Assembly: GCA_963790415.1 (NCBI GenBank)
Contig: CAWBOK010000005.1
Location: forward strand, 75,223 to 139,222
Source of the DNA: an uncultured Actinomycetota bacterium
GTDB taxonomy: Bacteria > Actinomycetota > Thermoleophilia > RBG-16-64-13
Reading direction: 5' to 3'
DNA: 64,000 bases
Part shown: in pieces, positions 38,295 through 50,455 of the stretch
Position numbering within the stretch: the first letter of the stretch is position 1
Layout of the letters: each line of letters begins with the position of its first letter
Made by a program: the position numbers and the translations under genes
The notes under the pieces: generated by a model
Told to the model about the DNA's origin: nothing
The model's input: the letters and a program-made list of their open reading frames with translations, nothing else
The model's database searches: none

Positions 38295-38354
38295 GTCGAA
38301 CGCCCGTCACCAGCGGTGCCGCACGGCGCCGTCGGCCGCATGCCGTTGTTAGGC
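38295..38354 (-). mobile_element. attC site (60 bp) directly after hsdR
   Basis: GCCTAAC AACGGCATGCGGCCGACGGCGCCGTGCGGCACCGCTGGTGACGGGC GTTCGAC; 7 bp from the hsdR stop. Confidence 0.75.
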
Positions 38355-38361
38355 GCCCCCT

Positions 38362-41497
<3,136 letters not shown>

Positions 41498-41501
<4 letters not shown>

Positions 41502-41746
41502 CCGATCACCTTCCAGTGTCCGCCTTTGGCGGAGCCGACCCGTACAAGCAGGCCTGAATCACGAAGTATCCGAATCGCGCGGTGGATCGCGCTCTCGGAC
41601 TTGTCCATGAGGGCTGCCAGTTGTGACACAGACAGATCTGGCTGGTCCTTGAGGAGCCGCAGGATCTCCGTCGGGGCTTTCCCTAGCGTTTCCCTGGCGT
41701 TTCCCTGGCGTTCCCCCGGCGTCCTCCCTGGCAATGTGAACGTCAT
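41498..41746 (-). CDS. Small winged-HTH protein (82 aa), possibly the remnant of a longer ATP-binding/Fic regulator
   Basis: [54 protein letters not shown]; GAGGGGG RBS; GTGA overlap with hsdR. Confidence 0.7.
41678..41721. repeat. Four tandem 11-bp units TT(T/C)CCC(T/C)(A/G)GCG
   Basis: TTTCCCTAGCG TTTCCCTGGCG TTTCCCTGGCG TTCCCCCGGCG. Confidence 0.85.
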
Positions 41747-42301
41747 GACCACCGCCCCCTCGCGCGACGACACCGTCGGCGAGCAAAGGAAGTCATCGAT
41801 GCGCCGCCTGAACCAAGCCATGCGGCGAGCCGATGGCGTGAGTTGGTACAGTGTCATCGCGACATTGCAACGCGATTGGTGTCGCGAAAGAGGCCACAGC
41901 GACGATTGGCGGCGCACGACGAGGGCACTACAGTATCCTTGGGACTGGGGATTCTCGGTCGGCAATTGGCCTCGGCGGAGTCGTCGGGGTCTTTTGCTTT
42001 TCACGGGAACACCTTGAGACCGCGCCCGGCCCAGTCGCTGTTCCTGTCCGTGCAGCATCTTGCAGCATCTTGCCCGGATCATCGCCATGACCGGTCCTTT
42101 CGCCGGACAGCGAAGAACCCCGGCCCCCGCGCCTGCAGCCGCCGCTCGTTCGGCGTGTGGCCGGGTGAGAGGTCCTCGCGAAGAGTGCGCGGCGCCCAGA
42201 TTCGGAACTGGGTGCCACGCCTGGAGTTGACGCGCTGACCGACACCGGATTCGGCGAAGGTGGTCATGGCCCGTTGTGATAACTCACCCGCCCAGAGTCA
42301 C

Positions 42302-42916
42302 TCACGCAGTCGCCTCGATGATCGCTTCGCGCAACTTCACGAAGCTGCGCGATCCGCTGCTACTGGGGTCGAGATGGGCACCCATCGTGCGCGCTGCCTC
42401 CACCTTGCGCAAGCCGGTTCTGAAGTAGCCGTGCCGTCGAAGGACGCGCTCGAACGCTTCCCAGGAGCCGCGGATCGCGTCAGGGTCGCGATAGCCCGCT
42501 CGGTTCGGGATGGTGCGGGGCACCCTCGGGTAGGCAGCGCGCACCGCCTCCCAATCGCCAAAGTACCAGCCCTCAAGCTCCTCGATCGCGATACGGTTGA
42601 CTAGTTTCCACGCTGCCCCGCCTGCGACCGATCGGGTGCGCAACCCGGCTGCTGCAGCCATGCATTCGAGTTGCCGCTTCAGAGCCCGGCAATCGTCGTC
42701 ATCGCGATCCACGACAACCACGATGCGCCAGTCGGCCGGCAACCACCGTGCATAGCCGTGCAGGCGATCCTGCAGCTTGTGCAACAGGTCGGCCTTGCCC
42801 TGGAACGCGTGAACCTCGAACGTGCGATCACAGGGCAATAGACGGGGCAGCAGGGCGCGCAGGAAGGCCTCCATCGAGGGCTCCTCTACCAGCAATTCCA
42901 GATGCCGCGCTCTCAT
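42302..42916 (-). CDS. DUF4276 family (TOPRIM-like) protein
   Basis: [21 protein letters not shown] and [11 protein letters not shown]; ATGA overlap with the ATPase stop. Confidence 0.8.
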
Positions 42917-44145
42917 CGTCCGCGGCTTTCGAGCGGGCGGGTTGGCGCGCCATCGTTGACGAGCGGATCGCCCACGCCAAGCTGGCCCTCCATCCACAGA
43001 TGGCCCAGCAATGCGCCGTGCTGCACAAACTCGGGTACGCCCGGCAAGTCCGCAGCGCGTCGCGTCTGCGTGTAGCCCTGGTCGTCGCGCCAGAGTACGC
43101 GCACCTCACCTGGCTTCAACGCGTTCAGAAAGAACGGCGAATGTGTGGTCACCAGCAGCTGCGTACGCTCAGTGGAGGCGCGGCACTCCTCCGCGAGTTC
43201 AGGCAGCAAACGTGGGTGAAGGAAGTTCTCCGGCTCTTCGATCCCGATGAACGGCGGAGGCGCTGGGTCATACAGCAACACCAGGTAGGCCAACATCTTC
43301 AGCGTGCCATCCGACGCGAACCGCGCCAACACCGGATGGCTGAAAGGCGCGTCCTTGATCTGAAGGAGCAAGCGACCATCGGGCATGGTCTCCGCCAGCA
43401 CTCGCTCGATGCGTGGCACACGCTGGCGCAGTACCTCAAAGATGCGCTCAAGTTGGTCGGGGTGCTGTTCCGCCAGATACTGGATCACGTTGGCAAGGTT
43501 GTCGCCGGTCTTGGTCAAACGCTCGTCCGGCCCTGCCTCGGGCTGCCCACGCGCGCTGTCGGCCGACAGGTACGACACATACCAGCCCGTGATGAAATCG
43601 CGCAGGGCCGCAACGCGGGGATGCTCGGCGAATTGTCCCAGTGCATTGACCGCCAGAAGATCAGGAGACTTCAGTGCGACCTCCACACGACGATCCTGTT
43701 CGTCGGGCAACTCGCCGCTGACCGCGCGGCCCTGGCCTTCGTGGTATTCAAGAAAGCGGAACGGCTGTCCGTGGCTGCCCCGCTTCCAGCGCAACCATTC
43801 CTCGACCACCACCGGGCCTCCGGCGCGCTCATCAACAGCCAAGTGGTATGTGATGAGCGGATAACCAGGCTCCCGGTACTTGATCTCAATCAACACGGGC
43901 CCGTCTCCACCCCGAGTCTTGAGCTCCTTGGCCCGGCCGCGCCTGTCCCACGCGCGGCGCAGTCCGAGCTCGAAACATTCGGCAAGGAACGCGAACACGT
44001 CGAACACGGTCGACTTGCCGCTTCCATTGGGGCCCAGCAGCACTGTTAGGGGGGTCAGATCCTTGAACTCCACATCGCACAGCGCGCGGAAGTTCTTGAC
44101 CCTCAGATACTCAATGCGCGGTGGTGTAAGAGATCGAGGGGACAT
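42913..44145 (-). CDS. ABC-type (AAA_21/AAA_15) ATPase
   Basis: Walker [10 protein letters not shown], signature-like SDGT, Walker B IEEPEN, H-loop TTHSP. Confidence 0.92.
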
Positions 44146-44156
44146 CTATTCCTCCG

Positions 44157-45725
44157 TCAGTGGATCGCCTGTGATTCTCCAGCGTCCTTCACCCGCAGCT
44201 CGCCAGATATGAGCCTGGGCAGCAGTGTGTCGCGCGACGCGACGAGGCTACGTGATTCGTGGATGCCCGCGATGATCCGCTCAATCGCCGGATGCAACCA
44301 CTTCCCGAACGACTCCGCTACTGTTATTGGCGGTAGCGCGACCTCGTAGCGCGCCATGTCCGACCAGCTCGTCCGGGGCATCTTCGTACCCGTCGAGCCG
44401 GCGTTCGTATAATCGACGAACTCGTCGCTCGACACGAGACCCAGCACAAAAGACAACCAGTGTGGGGCTTGCGGCGCCATAACCACTATGTCCGTAGAGC
44501 AGACACCATCGACCGGCGCGACACCTACCTTGTGGAAGTACGGCCGAAGCTTTCCGAAAAGAATCTCATGCTTCTTGAATTCGAACTTGTTGCTTTCGAG
44601 TCCTTCGGCGACGCCCCAGTCAGACAGAGCGATGCAACGCTTGGGCATGTGCCCGAGAGCGATATAGGGCACGCTTGGCTCGATATCGTCGGGCTGCACA
44701 CTCCGGCGCGGATGCTCGGCGACGTTACCAAGCGTCCCCACCTCCCACCCCTCCGGAATCTCGCCGAGTTCGGAGTCGACGAAGCGAGCGGGGAAAAGGT
44801 CGGCGAGGATCTTGGGAAGACCGGAATCGCGGCCTTCGGCCTTGGCGCGAACGGGGTCGAAGTCCACGAACCATGACTTGAAGAGCGCCTGCGCCATCGC
44901 CTCCAGCGTCTCGTTCATCCGCCTGTTCAATTCGATCTTGTCATCCAGCGTGCCGAGGATGTGGGCGATGGCGCGTTGTTGACGCTCGGGGAGGCTCGGC
45001 CACCAGAGGCCGGCGAGCTGATTCGCAGAGACGTTCGGGAACGTCGAACCTGTCGCCTGAAGCAGTAGACCAGGCAGTCCGTACTCAACAACAGCATGCA
45101 CGAGCGGCTGAAGTTCCGGGCTCTCCTTGTGGCGGATCGCTGCAACACCTCGCCCGATCGCGTACTCGCGATCCGCCCAGTTCATGCGGCCCGTGGTCGA
45201 GCCACGTACACAAAAGAGCACATCACCCGATCGTGCCCGCTTTCGCGCCGCCGTCGTCCATTGAACAGCCGACGGATGATGCGGCCCGTAGTCGGTCGGG
45301 CCGTTCAACAACGGGAGGCCAGCACCCTCTGTGTTGCAGGTCTCTCCCGGCGGAGACTGCCCCATGATGATGTCGGTGACGTCGCCTAGGCGCGTCTTAC
45401 CCCCCTCGCCCCCTTTCCCCCGATCCCGCTCGAACAGGACCTTCCCTTCCCGCGCGATGTGATCAAGCAGGGCCTGGTCCTCGATGGCGTGGTGCGGGAG
45501 CAGGTCCACCCGTTGAGGGATAGTCAGCTCCTCCATCCTCGCGGTCAGTCGTGCCTGGTCAGTCAGCGTCAGGGAGTCTCCGTACAGGCAGATGTCCACG
45601 TCGGATGCGGGGGTAAAGGTCCCCATGGCGCGCGAGCCGAAGAGGACGGCCCGGTCCACGCCGGGATGGGCGCGCAGGACGTCCAGGATGGCCTGGCGAT
45701 GGCGGTCCTTCAGGCCGTCGTTCAC
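44157..45725 (-). CDS. hsdS: Minimal nucleotidyltransferase (MNT) fused to type I specificity subunit S
   Basis: N-terminal about 100 aa LFGSRAMG...SDVD (GS-X10-DxD), then LGDV, GSTF, PSLPERQQRAIAHILGTLDDKIELN and RDTLLPRLISGEL HsdS regions. Confidence 0.88.
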   Translation of the reverse strand: MNDGLKDRHRQAILDVLRAHPGVDRAVLFGSRAMGTFTPASDVDICLYGDSLTLTDQARLTARMEELTIPQRVDLLPHHAIEDQALLDHIAREGKVLFERDRGKGGEGGKTRLGDVTDIIMGQSPPGETCNTEGAGLPLLNGPTDYGPHHPSAVQWTTAARKRARSGDVLFCVRGSTTGRMNWADREYAIGRGVAAIRHKESPELQPLVHAVVEYGLPGLLLQATGSTFPNVSANQLAGLWWPSLPERQQRAIAHILGTLDDKIELNRRMNETLEAMAQALFKSWFVDFDPVRAKAEGRDSGLPKILADLFPARFVDSELGEIPEGWEVGTLGNVAEHPRRSVQPDDIEPSVPYIALGHMPKRCIALSDWGVAEGLESNKFEFKKHEILFGKLRPYFHKVGVAPVDGVCSTDIVVMAPQAPHWLSFVLGLVSSDEFVDYTNAGSTGTKMPRTSWSDMARYEVALPPITVAESFGKWLHPAIERIIAGIHESRSLVASRDTLLPRLISGELRVKDAGESQAIH

Positions 45726-46138
45726 ATCGATGCCTGCTTGTCCCGCAGGCGCGCCAGTAGTCCCCGCAACATGGGCGCGTAGCGGTTCTTAATAAGGGCC
45801 ACGGCCTCCTTGGCTGTCTTGTCATCGTAGGTGCGGGTCAGGAGATTGCGCTTGTCCAGGGCATCAAGTGCGGCCTCGGCGGCGTCCTCCTCCAGGTACC
45901 CCGCTTCGAAGGCGCGGCGCAGCACGTCCCGCGGGGTCTTCTCGTCGAATCCTTCATAGAAGAGAAGGTCCTTGAGCGTCTTCCAGGCCAGTTCGAACGA
46001 GAACTCGAAGGTCTTTATGACGCCGGCGCGTTCTAAGTCGGAGTACTCGTTCGCCTTGGTTGCCGCATCGAGTTGAGACATGGCCTTGCCGAAGTTCGCC
46101 AGGCGCTGTTGCCATCGGATCTCGTCACTGTTACTCAT
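45722..46138 (-). CDS. HEPN / nucleotidyltransferase substrate-binding protein (HI0074-like)
   Basis: RWQQRLANF, GVIKTFEFSFELAWKTLK, PRDVLRRAF; RNLLTRTY at the RX4H site. Confidence 0.88.
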   Translation of the reverse strand: MSNSDEIRWQQRLANFGKAMSQLDAATKANEYSDLERAGVIKTFEFSFELAWKTLKDLLFYEGFDEKTPRDVLRRAFEAGYLEEDAAEAALDALDKRNLLTRTYDDKTAKEAVALIKNRYAPMLRGLLARLRDKQASM

Positions 46139-46166: not shown

Positions 46167-47342
46167 TCACTCTCGAACTGGAGAAAACGGCTGCGCTCCC
46201 TCGCTCAGAGTCGCCAGATACCGATCGTATGCGAACACACGACTGCGTCGACGCCCGGTCAGCTCCCGCAATATACCCAGCTCCACGAGGGCTTCCACCG
46301 CACGCGCGGCCGTGGAATACGCGACACCGGTCTGGCGCGCAAGATGGTCGATGTCTGCCACCGGACGGCGCCGCAGGGCATCGAACACGCGCAAGGCACT
46401 GACGGCCGCGCGGCCGAGGCCTTGGATACACTCGGCGTCAGTCTGGAACATAGCGAGAAGCCGATGAGCCGTGTCTACCGCACCGGTGGCCGTCTCGGTC
46501 ACGCCCTCGAGGAAGAAGTCGAGCCAGGTTTCCCAGTCGCCTGTGGTGCGCACGGAGTCAAGCTGCCGGTAGTACTCGGCCCGGTGCTGCTTGAAGTAGA
46601 GGCTCAGGTAGAGCAGCGGCTGCCGAAGCACGCCGTCGTGATGCAGGATGAGGGCGATCAGAAGTCGCCCGACTCGGCCGTTACCGTCAAGGAAGGGATG
46701 GATGGTCTCGAACTGCACGTGCGCAAGCGCGGCCTTCACGAGCGTGCCCGAGCTGGTGGGATGGTTCAAGAAGCGTTCGAGTTCTGCCATGCAGGACTCG
46801 ACCTCCTGCGGCGGTGGAGGCACGAACCGAGCATTGCCGGGGCGTGTGCCCCCGATCCAGTTCTGACTCCTGCGGAATTCGCCCGGCTGTTTGTCGGCAC
46901 CGCGACCGCGGGAGAGCAACGTGTCGTGGATCTCCCGCAGAAGCCGGTTGCACAAGGGAAAACCTCCGGCCAGGCGCGCCAGCCCGTGTTCTAGGGCGGC
47001 GACGTAGGTCGAGACTTCCACGACATCATCGAAGGGCACGCCGGGTGCCGCGTCGAGTTCGAAGAGCAACAGGTCGGACAGCGATGATTGCGTACCCTCG
47101 ATCTGGCTGGACAGAACGGCCTCGCGACGGACATAAGCATAGAAGAACAGGTCGGGCTCGGGCAGCAGCGCGGTGACACCATCCAGCCGGCCGCATGCGA
47201 GGAGCGCGCTCTCCAGAAGGTGCTGACGCTCGGGAGTCATGTCGACCGGGGGCTCCGGCGGCAACGGAACAGGCACGAAGGCACGCACGCGCTCGCCGCC
47301 GACCGCGGTTACCTCGAATCGCCCTGTTGTACCTCGTTGCAC
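46167..47342 (-). CDS. Fic family protein with C-terminal HTH
   Basis: EAVLSSQIEGT, PGEFRRSQNWIGG and the canonical HPFLDGNGRVGR. Confidence 0.93.
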   Translation of the reverse strand: MQRGTTGRFEVTAVGGERVRAFVPVPLPPEPPVDMTPERQHLLESALLACGRLDGVTALLPEPDLFFYAYVRREAVLSSQIEGTQSSLSDLLLFELDAAPGVPFDDVVEVSTYVAALEHGLARLAGGFPLCNRLLREIHDTLLSRGRGADKQPGEFRRSQNWIGGTRPGNARFVPPPPQEVESCMAELERFLNHPTSSGTLVKAALAHVQFETIHPFLDGNGRVGRLLIALILHHDGVLRQPLLYLSLYFKQHRAEYYRQLDSVRTTGDWETWLDFFLEGVTETATGAVDTAHRLLAMFQTDAECIQGLGRAAVSALRVFDALRRRPVADIDHLARQTGVAYSTAARAVEALVELGILRELTGRRRSRVFAYDRYLATLSEGAQPFSPVRE

Positions 47343-47414: not shown

Positions 47415-49016
<1,602 letters not shown>

Positions 49017-49200: not shown

Positions 49201-49336
49201 CCCATCATCATGCGAAGAACACACCACGAGTATCCCGCATCGCTCACCTGGTTTTCGTGGTACGCACTTCAGGAGCGGCGCCGTAGTCCGGAGATTCGAG
49301 ACGCGGTTCCTGCTCCTAGTGCAGCGATCCCCGGTG

Positions 49337-49768
49337 TCAGACCTTCTCGGCGAACGCTTTGAATCGCTCCATCGTTCCGAACGACTCCTTCTTGAACGAG
49401 CCTTCGAGCAGTCCCAGGGCTTTGCGCAACCCTTCGAACCGGAACTCGTTCTCTGAGGTCCAGCGCGTGCTCGTGGGGGATTCAGCGGCGAACCGGTTGG
49501 CGTTGCGGTTCCACACACCGGGAGTCTCGTAGATGACGTCGAGCTCGTCCGGTAGGGCGTTCCGCTCGACCGTCTCGGTCATGCCGGTCACGCGGTGGCC
49601 GGCCCGCGTGGTGAGCTCGGCTTTGGCGCCTGTCTGCGCCTGCTCTCCGCTCACGAGCTGGTAGCACTCCAAACCTGGTTGCCACTCCGAGAAGTGCTCC
49701 GGATCGACAAACAGAGCGACGACCCTGTCGCGTGGGGCCTCGATGATGATCTCCTGCCTGTATCTCAT
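49337..49768 (-). CDS. SRPBCC family protein
   Basis: IIIEAPRDRVVALF.DPE...WQPGL; TMERFKAFAE. Confidence 0.85.
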   Translation of the reverse strand: MRYRQEIIIEAPRDRVVALFVDPEHFSEWQPGLECYQLVSGEQAQTGAKAELTTRAGHRVTGMTETVERNALPDELDVIYETPGVWNRNANRFAAESPTSTRWTSENEFRFEGLRKALGLLEGSFKKESFGTMERFKAFAEKV

Positions 49769-49835
49769 GGGATGATGCCTCCTCTTGGCGCGACGCATCC
49801 TCCTCGGTGGCCGCGCGTCGACAGCGACTGCGTGG

Positions 49836-50333
49836 TCACATTCCCGGCCCCAGGGATCGCAGGTACTCTTCCAACCGGTCATAGCTTTCGGCCCACCCGT
49901 CCAGCATCCCGGTCGCGATGATCTGCTCGCGGACTTCCTTCGACGGGTAATCGACGGTCGTCCGCAGGATCGTCCGGGTGCCCTCTTCACTGAGCGTCAG
50001 AGTGTTGACCGTTTCGACCGGCCCGTCGTCCAAGGTCTCGGTCTGCACGATGCGCTCAGGAGCCAGTATCTCGCGCTGCCGTCCGCTCAATTGGAAGCCC
50101 GCACCCCCCGGTCCCTCAAACACGTAGCGCCATCCACCCCCGGGCGTCAGGTCGATCGCGCAGATCGGCATGGTCCACTCATCGGTTCCCAGAAGCCAGC
50201 GTTGGACGTGCTCGCACTGCGTGTGGGCCGCCCACAACAGCTCCCGTGGAGCCTCGAACTCGTGAGTCGCTACGAGCCTCGTGTCGCTCGGTGTCGTGAA
50301 CGTCGTCTGTCCGATGTGCGTCGTAGCTGCCAT
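49836..50333 (-). CDS. SRPBCC/AHSA1 family protein
   Basis: EFEAPRELLWAAHT, IDLTPGGGWRYV, GMLDGWAESYDRL. Confidence 0.88.
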   Translation of the reverse strand: MAATTHIGQTTFTTPSDTRLVATHEFEAPRELLWAAHTQCEHVQRWLLGTDEWTMPICAIDLTPGGGWRYVFEGPGGAGFQLSGRQREILAPERIVQTETLDDGPVETVNTLTLSEEGTRTILRTTVDYPSKEVREQIIATGMLDGWAESYDRLEEYLRSLGPGM

Positions 50334-50396
50334 TTCCGGCCATCCCTGTATCGATGAATCATCTTACTATCTTTTCTATACCCTGCTATCCGCCAG

Positions 50397-50455
50397 GCCT
50401 AACGACCGAAGGTCTACGCCGATAGGCGAACCGCGTCAACGGCGCCGAGTTCGCT
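50397..50455 (-). mobile_element. attC site (59 bp)
   Basis: AGCGAAC immediately after the vapC stop ... GTTAGGC; internal pairing imperfect. Confidence 0.6.

What the first reader, a model, noticed from the sequence alone, without database searches (positions are those of the whole stretch)
44157..45725. Antitoxin-type nucleotidyltransferase fused in frame to HsdS
Seen: a continuous 522-aa ORF with an MNT domain (GS-X10-DVD), a G-rich linker and a two-TRD HsdS. There is no separate start for HsdS. The cognate HEPN gene overlaps the MNT start. Knowledge: MNT antitoxins neutralise HEPN RNases by AMPylating a Tyr next to the RX4H site. Inference: tethering the antitoxin to the specificity subunit would tie toxin silencing to the presence and integrity of the R-M complex, an addiction or guard mechanism.
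Basis: partly seen in the sequence, partly recalled or inferred. Interest (0 to 1): 0.75.

Follow-up and report, generated by a model that had tools for sequence, protein, structure and literature searches.

The report
Antitoxin enzyme fused to restriction specificity subunit
In this type I restriction-modification operon, the enzyme that normally switches off a neighbouring RNA-cutting toxin forms the front end of the DNA-recognition subunit; the fusion is real, recurs in many bacterial phyla and matched no paper I could find, but whether it wires the toxin to the state of the restriction complex is untested.

Summary
The 522-aa ORF (44157-45725, minus strand) is confirmed. Residues 1-100 are an MNT nucleotidyltransferase with an exact GS-X10-DXD motif, followed by a linker of about 8 residues and a complete two-TRD HsdS. 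The HEPN gene overlaps the MNT start by 4 nt.

The fusion is not an artefact. At least 263 protein clusters share the architecture, and about half of 80 related loci from at least 12 phyla are fused. In fused loci hsdM (28/31) and HEPN (29/31) lie upstream. The same HEPN-MNT clade also occurs as a free two-gene pair.

MNT and HsdS have discordant histories, and two MNT clades are fused to near-identical HsdS bodies. This argues for recurrent or maintained fusion.

The closest characterised system is the Legionella Lpg2920/Lpg2921 type VII toxin-antitoxin pair. Its MNT lacks the C-terminal helix, which may explain why a C-terminal fusion is tolerated.

Caveats for this copy:
- HEPN has Arg in place of the RX4H His (72 of 74 relatives have His). 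In Legionella, H103A did not abolish toxicity.
- hsdR has two +1 frame breaks, which fit this assembly's known insertion errors.

The guard or addiction reading is plausible but unproven.

The parts
47415..49016 (-). hsdM (533 aa), the type I methyltransferase subunit, intact
   Evidence: Pfam N6_Mtase E 4e-105 plus HsdM_N
46167..47342 (-). Fic/DOC protein with a C-terminal wHTH (SoFic-type defence gene), inserted between hsdM and HEPN
   Evidence: Pfam Fic_N and Fic; PADLOC SoFic E 7e-119
45722..46138 (-). HEPN toxin-type gene (138 aa, PF08780/HI0074 type). Its motif reads R97-NLLT-R102-T-Y104.
   Evidence: Pfam E 3e-31; PDB 8xdj HEPN toxin E 9e-21; 4-nt GTGA overlap with the MNT start
45833..45835 (-). 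CGC codon (Arg102) where 72 of 74 relatives have His in RX4HXY. The acceptor Tyr104 codon (45827-45829) is kept.
45426..45725 (-). MNT nucleotidyltransferase domain (fusion residues 1-100). The GS-X10-DXD motif lies at 45594-45638.
   Evidence: Pfam; PDB 8xeh_E E 8e-17; AF2 pLDDT about 90 and Foldseek 8xeo TM 0.97
45402..45425 (-). G-rich linker (residues 101-108, DRGKGGEG), the only low-confidence internal segment of the model
   Evidence: AF2 pLDDT below 50 at residues 103-109; linker length and sequence vary among relatives
44157..45401 (-). HsdS body (residues 109-522): two TRDs and two conserved helical regions
   Evidence: PADLOC Specificity_I E 7e-86; 78% identity to the unfused HsdS P0003; Foldseek 1yf2, 1ydx, 7vru_C, 2y7c
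42913..44145 (-). AAA_21/ABC-type ATPase (HEC-01A)
   Evidence: Pfam AAA_21 E 5e-31; PADLOC HEC-01A E 3e-162
42302..42997 (-). DUF4276 protein (HEC-01B), partner of the ATPase
   Evidence: Pfam DUF4276 E 1e-29; PADLOC HEC-01B E 7e-82
41498..42088 (-). Small protein with a winged-helix DNA-binding domain (HTH at residues about 131-189)
   Evidence: Pfam HTH_5, MarR_2 and HTH_24
38362..41501 (-). hsdR, read in three frames. The frame changes are near 40922-40932 and 39729-39737, both of +1 polarity. Each piece is otherwise 67-76% identical to an intact HsdR.
   Evidence: tblastn with the L002 HsdR; sequence

Best explanation
This is a genuine single gene. It encodes a type VII (HEPN/MNT, HepT/MntA-type) antitoxin domain fused to the N-terminus of the type I specificity subunit HsdS. 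The toxin gene lies immediately upstream and is translationally coupled, all inside one hsd operon.

Shown here:
- the architecture;
- the intact GS-X10-DXD active site;
- an MNT fold of the short, helix-alpha4-less Legionella type;
- a complete HsdS;
- conservation of the hsdM - HEPN - MNT::hsdS module across phyla.

Inferred from the characterised homologues:
- The MNT domain binds the HEPN oligomer and AMPylates the Tyr of R-X4-(H/R)-X-Y (Tyr104 here), which keeps the RNase silent.
- Because the antitoxin is part of HsdS, it is made in fixed proportion to HsdS and shares its stability.
- It probably holds the silenced HEPN at the M2S1/R2M2S1 complex.
- The R-M system and an RNase-based arrest or suicide function are therefore inherited, expressed and possibly regulated as one unit, either as a second-line defence or as an addiction function for the operon.

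What releases the toxin is unknown.

In this particular copy the His-to-Arg change at the conserved motif may alter toxin control or activity.
For: - Domains and motif.
- Structure: pLDDT 88. The N-terminal domain matches the MNT antitoxin 8xeo/8xeh (TM 0.93-0.97), and the rest matches HsdS structures.
- Sequence relatives in PDB: HEPN 8xdj E 9e-21; MNT 8xeh E 8e-17.
- Recurrence: 263 or more fused clusters; the fused form predominates among the nearest MNT relatives.
- Census: 426 related loci in species-representative genomes. Of the best 80, 31 are fused and 10 are split but adjacent to HsdS. Among fused loci, hsdM is present in 28 of 31, HEPN in 29 of 31, and hsdR in the flank in 19 of 31.
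- Tight coupling: 4-nt overlaps at both the hsdM/HEPN and HEPN/MNT junctions in most fused loci.
- Active site kept in 114 of 115 fusions; HEPN His and Tyr kept in 72 and 73 of 74 relatives.
- Mosaic histories: P0005 has MNT 36% and HsdS 76% identity to the window; P0123 has MNT 78% and HsdS 34%. Two MNT clades are fused to similar HsdS bodies.
- Mechanism of homologues: PMC7641770 and PMC11586414. The Legionella-type MNT lacks the C-terminal helix that docks HEPN in other systems, which leaves the C-terminus free for fusion (model secondary structure).
Against: - No biochemical or genetic test exists for any MNT::HsdS protein that I could find.
- The same TA clade is often free-standing and changes state many times on the tree (21 changes, at least 4 forced). 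The fusion may therefore be easily made and lost rather than essential.
- The MNT is N-terminal, so damage to the HsdS body would not remove the antitoxin.
- This copy's HEPN has Arg at the conserved His.
- Reads could not be checked, and the assembly is indel-prone.
- A single-chain model says nothing about whether a HEPN-bound MNT is compatible with M2S1 assembly.
Confidence: 0.6

Rival explanations
1. PrrC-like guard in the strict sense. The HsdS-tethered MNT keeps HEPN latent only while the R-M complex is in its normal state. Phage anti-restriction proteins (Ocr/ArdA-type DNA mimics or Stp-like peptides), or loss of HsdS, would stop AMPylation or release HEPN and trigger abortive infection.
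For: - An RNase toxin inside a type I hsd operon parallels PrrC-EcoprrI, and Anantharaman et al. proposed this logic for R-M-linked HEPN genes (PMC3710099).
- The covalent link to the subunit that organises M2S1 recurs in two MNT clades.
- Further anti-phage modules (SoFic, HEC-01) sit in the same operon.
- PDB holds a Cmr1-MntA fusion (9z7q), an MntA domain built into another immune complex.
Against: - There is no evidence of a sensing step.
- AMPylation is covalent and would persist after the complex is disturbed, unless new toxin is made or AMP is removed.
- HEPN here is a minimal 138-aa protein without the ABC ATPase regulator of PrrC.
- Free-standing relatives are equally common.
- In this copy the conserved His is replaced.
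Confidence: 0.3
2. Hitch-hiking TA with a functionally neutral fusion. A mobile HEPN-MNT cassette inserted between hsdM and hsdS, and loss of the MNT stop codon merely preserved translational coupling. The MNT acts as an ordinary antitoxin and HsdS as an ordinary specificity subunit, with no cross-talk. The TA only stabilises the locus.
For: - Free and fused states interleave on the MNT tree.
- Split versions exist next to HsdS in 10 of 41 R-M-linked loci.
- Linker length and sequence are unconstrained.
- The AF2 model shows two independent, well-folded domains joined by a disordered linker.
Against: - Fused outnumbers split by 31 to 10, and some split cases have overlapping frames that suggest assembly indels.
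- The fusion is found with many different TRDs and in two MNT clades, plus tandem MNT-MNT::HsdS forms.
- In the 150-protein list, fusion partners other than HsdS were rare: I noticed MNT at the C-terminus of other proteins, or after HEPN-like sequence, in about six entries, without a systematic count.
Confidence: 0.25
3. The fusion in this genome is an assembly artefact. One extra base in the G-rich linker would join a separate MNT gene and a separate hsdS.
For: - This assembly has many insertion-type (+1) frame breaks (earlier notes).
- hsdR in this very operon has two such breaks.
- The linker consists of G5, A3, G5 and G6 runs.
- Reads could not be checked.
Against: - Removing any single base yields an HsdS with no start codon before M121. 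That would lose the conserved N-terminal strand TRLGDVTDII, which matches SQLGDNTEIV at the very N-terminus of the unfused homologue.
- The nearest MNT relatives (77-79% identity, L006 and L007) are fused as well.
- An insertion error usually breaks a frame rather than joining two.
Confidence: 0.04
4. Not a toxin-antitoxin at all. HEPN serves as the substrate-binding partner of the MNT (the original HI0073/HI0074 idea), and the pair nucleotidylates an R-M component or another target to regulate restriction or modification.
For: - Pfam names the HEPN family 'nucleotidyltransferase substrate binding protein'.
- This copy lacks the conserved His.
- The enzyme is tethered to the R-M core.
Against: - The closest homologues are experimentally shown toxin-antitoxin pairs in which HEPN itself is the AMPylation target.
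- The acceptor Tyr and the Mg-site Glu are conserved.
- The same pair is often free of any R-M genes.
Confidence: 0.05

Closest known systems
Legionella pneumophila HEPN-MNT (Lpg2920/Lpg2921), a type VII toxin-antitoxin pair (PDB 8xdj, 8xeh, 8xeo; PMC11586414)
   Same: - Closest solved relatives of both proteins: HEPN E 9e-21 and MNT E 8e-17 by sequence; the MNT model superposes at TM 0.97.
- A short MNT without the C-terminal alpha4 helix.
- GS-X10-DXD in the MNT and an R-X4-H-X-Y loop with an acceptor Tyr in HEPN.
- The Mg-site Glu is conserved.
   Different: - Here the MNT is not a free 108-aa protein but the N-terminal domain of HsdS.
- The pair sits inside a type I R-M operon.
- This copy has Arg at the motif His.
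Shewanella oneidensis HepT/MntA and Aphanizomenon flos-aquae HEPN/MNT (PDB 5yep, 6m6v, 7ae9; PMC7641770)
   Same: Same system type: the MNT antitoxin oligo-AMPylates the Tyr next to RX4H and blocks the RNase. The fold matches at TM about 0.6.
   Different: - Those MNTs carry a C-terminal helix that docks HEPN.
- In those systems the MNT gene comes first; here HEPN comes first.
- There is no link to R-M.
- In Shewanella, R97 and H102 are needed for toxicity.
PrrC-EcoprrI (anticodon nuclease held latent by a type Ic R-M system)
   Same: A HEPN-superfamily RNase encoded inside an hsd operon. A physical association with the R-M proteins that keeps the RNase silent is established for PrrC (as summarised in PMC3710099).
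   Different: - PrrC is one large ABC-ATPase-HEPN protein silenced by non-covalent binding to the R-M complex.
- Here a minimal HEPN would be silenced enzymatically by an MNT that is covalently part of HsdS.
- No trigger is known.
Fused MNT-HEPN proteins (FhepTA, Shewanella; PMC13000451) and Cmr1-MntA (PDB 9z7q)
   Same: An MNT antitoxin domain is joined to another polypeptide. In FhepTA the fusion stabilises the MNT domain. Cmr1-MntA places an MntA domain in an immune effector complex.
   Different: The partner here is HsdS, not the toxin itself or a CRISPR subunit. I found no paper on Cmr1-MntA in the library.

Membership tests
HEPN/MNT (HepT/MntA) type VII toxin-antitoxin system | MNT with the catalytic GS-X10-DXD motif | tested here: met
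   G30-S31-(RAMGTFTPAS)-D42-V-D44. The motif is kept in 114 of 115 fused relatives.
HEPN/MNT (HepT/MntA) type VII toxin-antitoxin system | MNT fold like solved MNT antitoxins | tested here: met
   The AF2 model matches 8xeo and 8xeh at TM 0.93-0.97 and rmsd about 1 A. It also matches 6m6v, 7ae9 and 1no5.
HEPN/MNT (HepT/MntA) type VII toxin-antitoxin system | Adjacent, co-transcribed HEPN gene | tested here: met
   HEPN (PF08780) lies directly upstream with a 4-nt overlap. The same holds in 29 of 31 fused loci and 31 of 35 free loci.
HEPN/MNT (HepT/MntA) type VII toxin-antitoxin system | HEPN carries the full R-X4-H-X-Y motif | tested here: not met
   This copy reads R-NLLT-R-T-Y. Arg and Tyr are kept, but His is replaced by Arg (CGC). 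Of 74 relatives, 72 have His.
HEPN/MNT (HepT/MntA) type VII toxin-antitoxin system | HEPN is toxic, and MNT neutralises it by AMPylating the Tyr | not testable with these tools
   Known only for homologues.
HEPN/MNT (HepT/MntA) type VII toxin-antitoxin system | Antitoxin is a small free-standing protein | tested here: not met
   The MNT is residues 1-100 of a 522-aa HsdS fusion.
Type I R-M specificity subunit (HsdS) | Two target-recognition domains separated by two conserved helical regions | tested here: met
   PADLOC Specificity_I covers residues 110-516. The model has long helices at 247-287 and 467-507 and matches 1yf2, 1ydx and 2y7c. It is 78% identical to an ordinary HsdS.
Type I R-M specificity subunit (HsdS) | Encoded with hsdM and hsdR | tested here: inconclusive
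   hsdM is intact. hsdR is present but read in three frames. Both breaks have +1 polarity, like this assembly's known errors, and reads were unavailable.
Type I R-M specificity subunit (HsdS) | Assembles into M2S1 and directs sequence-specific methylation | not testable with these tools
   Needs biochemistry or methylome data.
PrrC-type R-M-guarded RNase | HEPN-superfamily RNase encoded within a type I hsd operon | tested here: met
PrrC-type R-M-guarded RNase | ABC-ATPase regulatory domain fused to the nuclease | tested here: not met
   HEPN is a 138-aa single-domain protein.
PrrC-type R-M-guarded RNase | Latency through association with the R-M complex, and activation by a phage anti-restriction factor | not testable with these tools
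   Only the covalent MNT-HsdS link is seen. No sensing step is shown.

The most novel reading that the evidence does not exclude
MNT::HsdS is the hub of an undescribed class of R-M-coupled abortive-infection systems. The HsdS-borne MNT would dock a silenced HEPN oligomer onto the type I methyltransferase/restriction complex. Disturbance of that complex (anti-restriction DNA mimics, loss of HsdM contact, or HsdS turnover) would stop re-AMPylation and free the RNase. This would be an enzymatic, covalently tethered counterpart of PrrC-EcoprrI, present in hundreds of species.
Probability: 0.3. Interest if true: 0.8.

Novelty: new variant of a known kind. Interest (0 to 1): 0.6.

Why it matters
Toxin genes are common inside restriction-modification and CRISPR loci, but PrrC-EcoprrI is the one physically and mechanistically understood link that I know of (own knowledge, not searched for). 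A conserved covalent fusion of an enzymatic antitoxin to the subunit that organises the type I complex is a 'Rosetta stone' for such coupling. It predicts a direct protein-level connection between DNA-level immunity and an RNase-based arrest.

The prediction can be tested with ordinary tools: co-purification, AMPylation mass spectrometry, fused versus split constructs, and phages with and without anti-restriction genes. The architecture is widespread (hundreds of species, at least 12 phyla), is annotated only as 'restriction endonuclease subunit S', and was not described in any paper I could find.

This copy is one more member rather than the best model, because of its His-to-Arg change and the quality of the assembly.

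Tried and rejected
- Close relatives of the genome, to see an ancestral state: the locus is absent from 40 related genomes, and the one match found is distant at 36% identity. It was probably acquired horizontally.
- Literature: seven full-text searches and targeted reading of Anantharaman 2013, Makarova 2013, the BREX 2026 paper and the FhepTA 2026 paper found no description of an MNT-HsdS fusion. Anantharaman 2013 mentions an 'RM_TRD' abbreviation in a figure legend. The figure is not held, so a depiction there cannot be excluded.
- 'The locus is decaying' (hsdR pseudogene plus disarmed toxin): I first favoured this. I dropped it because both hsdR breaks have the +1 polarity typical of this assembly's errors, and HEPN departs from the 42 columns conserved at 90% or more at only two positions. 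In the closest characterised homologue, H103A does not abolish toxicity.
- 'Tandem MNT-MNT::HsdS proteins pair with two HEPN genes': only one HEPN was detected in most such loci, so this was left open.
- The MNT tree has only 100 columns and is weakly resolved. The count of free/fused changes (21) is an upper-range estimate, and only 4 changes are forced by well-supported branches.
Full report
**Observation**

The minus strand of the window carries one co-oriented operon:
- hsdM, 47415-49016
- a Fic/DOC gene, 46167-47342
- a HEPN gene, 45722-46138
- the 522-aa ORF in question, 44157-45725
- an AAA_21 ATPase, 42913-44145
- a DUF4276 gene, 42302-42997
- a small wHTH gene, 41498-42088
- hsdR, 38362-41501

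In the 522-aa ORF, Pfam places a Polbeta/NTP_transf_2 domain at residues 12-102 and Methylase_S from residue 111. A PADLOC type I specificity model covers residues 110-516. The nucleotidyltransferase motif is exact: G30-S31, ten residues, D42-V-D44. The HEPN stop codon lies inside the GTGA that contains the GTG start of the fusion.

**Is the fusion real?**

- Searching the large protein collection with residues 1-112, while restricting candidates to fusion-sized proteins, gave 263 clusters. Nearly all listed ones carry both PF18765/PF01909 and PF01420.
- An unbiased search of 1.8 billion representatives with the MNT domain alone showed that fusion is the commonest state of this MNT clade. Of the best 100 representatives, 49 are 450 aa or longer, 42 are intermediate (mostly contig-truncated fusions or tandem MNTs), and only 9 are 125 aa or shorter.
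- A scan of species-representative genomes found 426 related loci. The best 80 come from at least 12 phyla.
- Of those 80 loci, 31 are fused, 10 have the MNT split from an adjacent HsdS, 35 are free HEPN-MNT pairs, and 4 are cut by contig ends.
- In fused loci, hsdM lies upstream in 28 of 31, HEPN in 29 of 31, and hsdR is within the 6-kb flank in 19 of 31.
- In most fused loci, HEPN overlaps the hsdM stop and the MNT start by 4 nt each.

Earlier notes of this scan say that this assembly has many insertion-type frame errors. I therefore removed every single base of the linker in turn. Each removal gives a 112-aa MNT and an HsdS frame with no start codon before M121. That would delete TRLGDVTDII, which aligns with SQLGDNTEIV at the very N-terminus of the 78%-identical unfused HsdS P0003. 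The fused reading is the most parsimonious even if an indel error were present. The nearest MNT relatives (L006 and L007, 77-79% identity) are fused too.

**What the parts are**

An AlphaFold2 model built on 40 fusions has a mean pLDDT of 88. Only the linker (residues 103-109) and the C-terminal tail have low confidence.

Foldseek matches the C-terminal 410 residues to HsdS structures (1yf2, 1ydx, 7vru_C, 2y7c). It matches the N-terminal 100 residues to the Legionella MNT antitoxin (8xeo and 8xeh, TM 0.93-0.97, rmsd about 1 A). More distant matches are MntA of Shewanella, the Aphanizomenon MNT and HI0073.

By sequence, the HEPN protein is closest to the Legionella HEPN toxin 8xdj (E 9e-21), and the MNT domain is closest to 8xeh_E (E 8e-17). 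The pair therefore belongs to the Lpg2920/Lpg2921-like branch of type VII toxin-antitoxin systems.

In that system the MNT poly-AMPylates Tyr105 of the R-X4-H-X-Y loop, binds the HEPN tetramer, and lacks the C-terminal alpha4 helix that docks HEPN in the Shewanella and Aphanizomenon systems (PMC11586414; PMC7641770). The model here also ends after a beta strand at residues 95-99, with no alpha4. My inference is that a C-terminus not needed for toxin binding is what lets this clade tolerate a C-terminal HsdS.

**Evolution**

On a tree of the MNT domain (100 columns, weakly resolved), free and R-M-linked states are interleaved. The best tree needs 21 changes, and at least 4 are forced by well-supported branches.

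MNT and HsdS parts have discordant histories:
- P0005 shares 76% identity with the window in HsdS but only 36% in MNT.
- P0123 shares 78% in MNT but 34% in HsdS.

Two MNT clades are about 32-36% identical to each other and have their own HEPN partners, which are only about 27-34% identical to the window's HEPN. Both clades are fused to similar HsdS bodies. In addition, 35 clusters carry tandem MNT-MNT::HsdS. The catalytic motif is kept in 114 of 115 fusions. The fusion has therefore either arisen repeatedly or been maintained through module swapping, with an active enzyme. This argues for selection on the link, but it does not say what the link does.

**This copy**

HEPN reads R-NLLT-R-T-Y. 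The codon is CGC where 72 of 74 relatives have His, and the only other Arg case has also lost the Tyr. Otherwise the protein departs from the 42 columns conserved at 90% or more at just one further position. It keeps the Glu of the Mg site that is the true active site in the Legionella enzyme.

In Shewanella, H102A abolishes toxicity. In Legionella, the closer relative, R98A and H103A affect neither RNase activity nor toxicity. The change cannot simply be read as a disarmed toxin. It sits next to the acceptor Tyr and might instead affect AMPylation.

hsdR is read in three frames, with breaks near 40922-40932 and 39729-39737. Each piece is 67-76% identical to an intact HsdR. Both breaks have +1 polarity, the signature that earlier notes ascribe to assembly errors in this genome. 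I therefore regard hsdR as probably intact in the organism.

The locus is absent from 40 relatives, so it was probably acquired horizontally. The operon also carries SoFic and an HEC-01 ATPase/DUF4276 pair.

**Mechanism**

Shown: the architecture, the active-site motif, the folds and the conservation.

Inferred: the MNT domain AMPylates HEPN Tyr104. Because it is part of HsdS, the antitoxin is produced and turned over with HsdS, and it probably holds the silenced HEPN at the M2S1/R2M2S1 complex.

Three readings remain open:
- a broad coupling of R-M with an RNase back-up or addiction function (my best reading, 0.6);
- its stricter PrrC-like guard version, in which disturbance of the complex releases the toxin (0.3);
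- a neutral fusion of a hitch-hiking TA (0.25).

Points against the strict guard reading:
- the MNT is N-terminal, so it would survive damage to the HsdS body;
- AMPylation is covalent;
- the same TA is often free-standing.

**Comparison with the known, and novelty**

HEPN genes in R-M operons and the PrrC analogy were described in 2013 (PMC3710099). That paper states that R-M-linked HEPN domains fuse to nucleases, helicases and ATPases but not to methylases, and it does not mention an MNT-HsdS fusion in its text.

Seven full-text searches found no description of this fusion. Databases label these proteins simply as subunit S. Follow-up reports of this scan on other genomes reached the same conclusion, but those are not independent evidence.

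I rate it as a new variant of a known kind: a type VII TA whose antitoxin is built into HsdS. This window is one more member, with caveats about assembly quality.

Noticed in passing
window 38362-41501 (breaks near 40922-40932 and 39729-39737): hsdR is read in three frames through two +1-type frame changes, but each piece is 67-76% identical to an intact HsdR. This fits the insertion-biased errors reported for this assembly better than it fits a pseudogene.
   Followed up: partly
window 45833-45835: HEPN has Arg (CGC) where 72 of 74 relatives have the RX4H His. In the closest characterised homologue (Legionella), H103A leaves RNase activity and toxicity intact, so the effect here is open.
   Followed up: partly
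proteins P0044, P0061, P0091, P0127-P0175 and others; loci L022, L038, L045, L051, L052, L077, L083: Thirty-five clusters carry two different MNT domains in tandem ahead of HsdS (610-700 aa), usually with only one detectable HEPN gene upstream. Some proteins also carry DUF559/MTES_1575 nuclease-like domains (P0161, P0162, P0207, P0228, P0229).
   Followed up: partly
L036 5591-8453, L037 5591-8483, L028 4853-7659: Two HEPN-MNT pairs of different clades lie in series inside one hsd operon. In L036 and L037 only the second MNT is fused to HsdS.
   Followed up: no
window 46167-47342 and 42302-44145: The same operon holds a SoFic-type Fic/DOC gene between hsdM and HEPN, and an HEC-01 ATPase plus DUF4276 pair between hsdS and hsdR. 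Three accessory modules are thus nested in one type I system.
   Followed up: partly
PDB 9z7q, 9z7v, 9z7x: Solved structures titled 'Cmr1-MntA' show an MntA-type domain fused to a type III CRISPR subunit. This is another case of this antitoxin enzyme being built into an immune complex. I found no paper on it in the library.
   Followed up: partly
P0295, P0311, P0346: A few relatives have HEPN-like sequence continuous with the MNT domain (HEPN-MNT read-through or fusion) in the same clade.
   Followed up: no
window about 38295-38354 and 49260-50400: Earlier first-reader notes propose attC-like sites flanking the R-M locus, which would make it a giant integron cassette. I did not examine this.
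   Followed up: no
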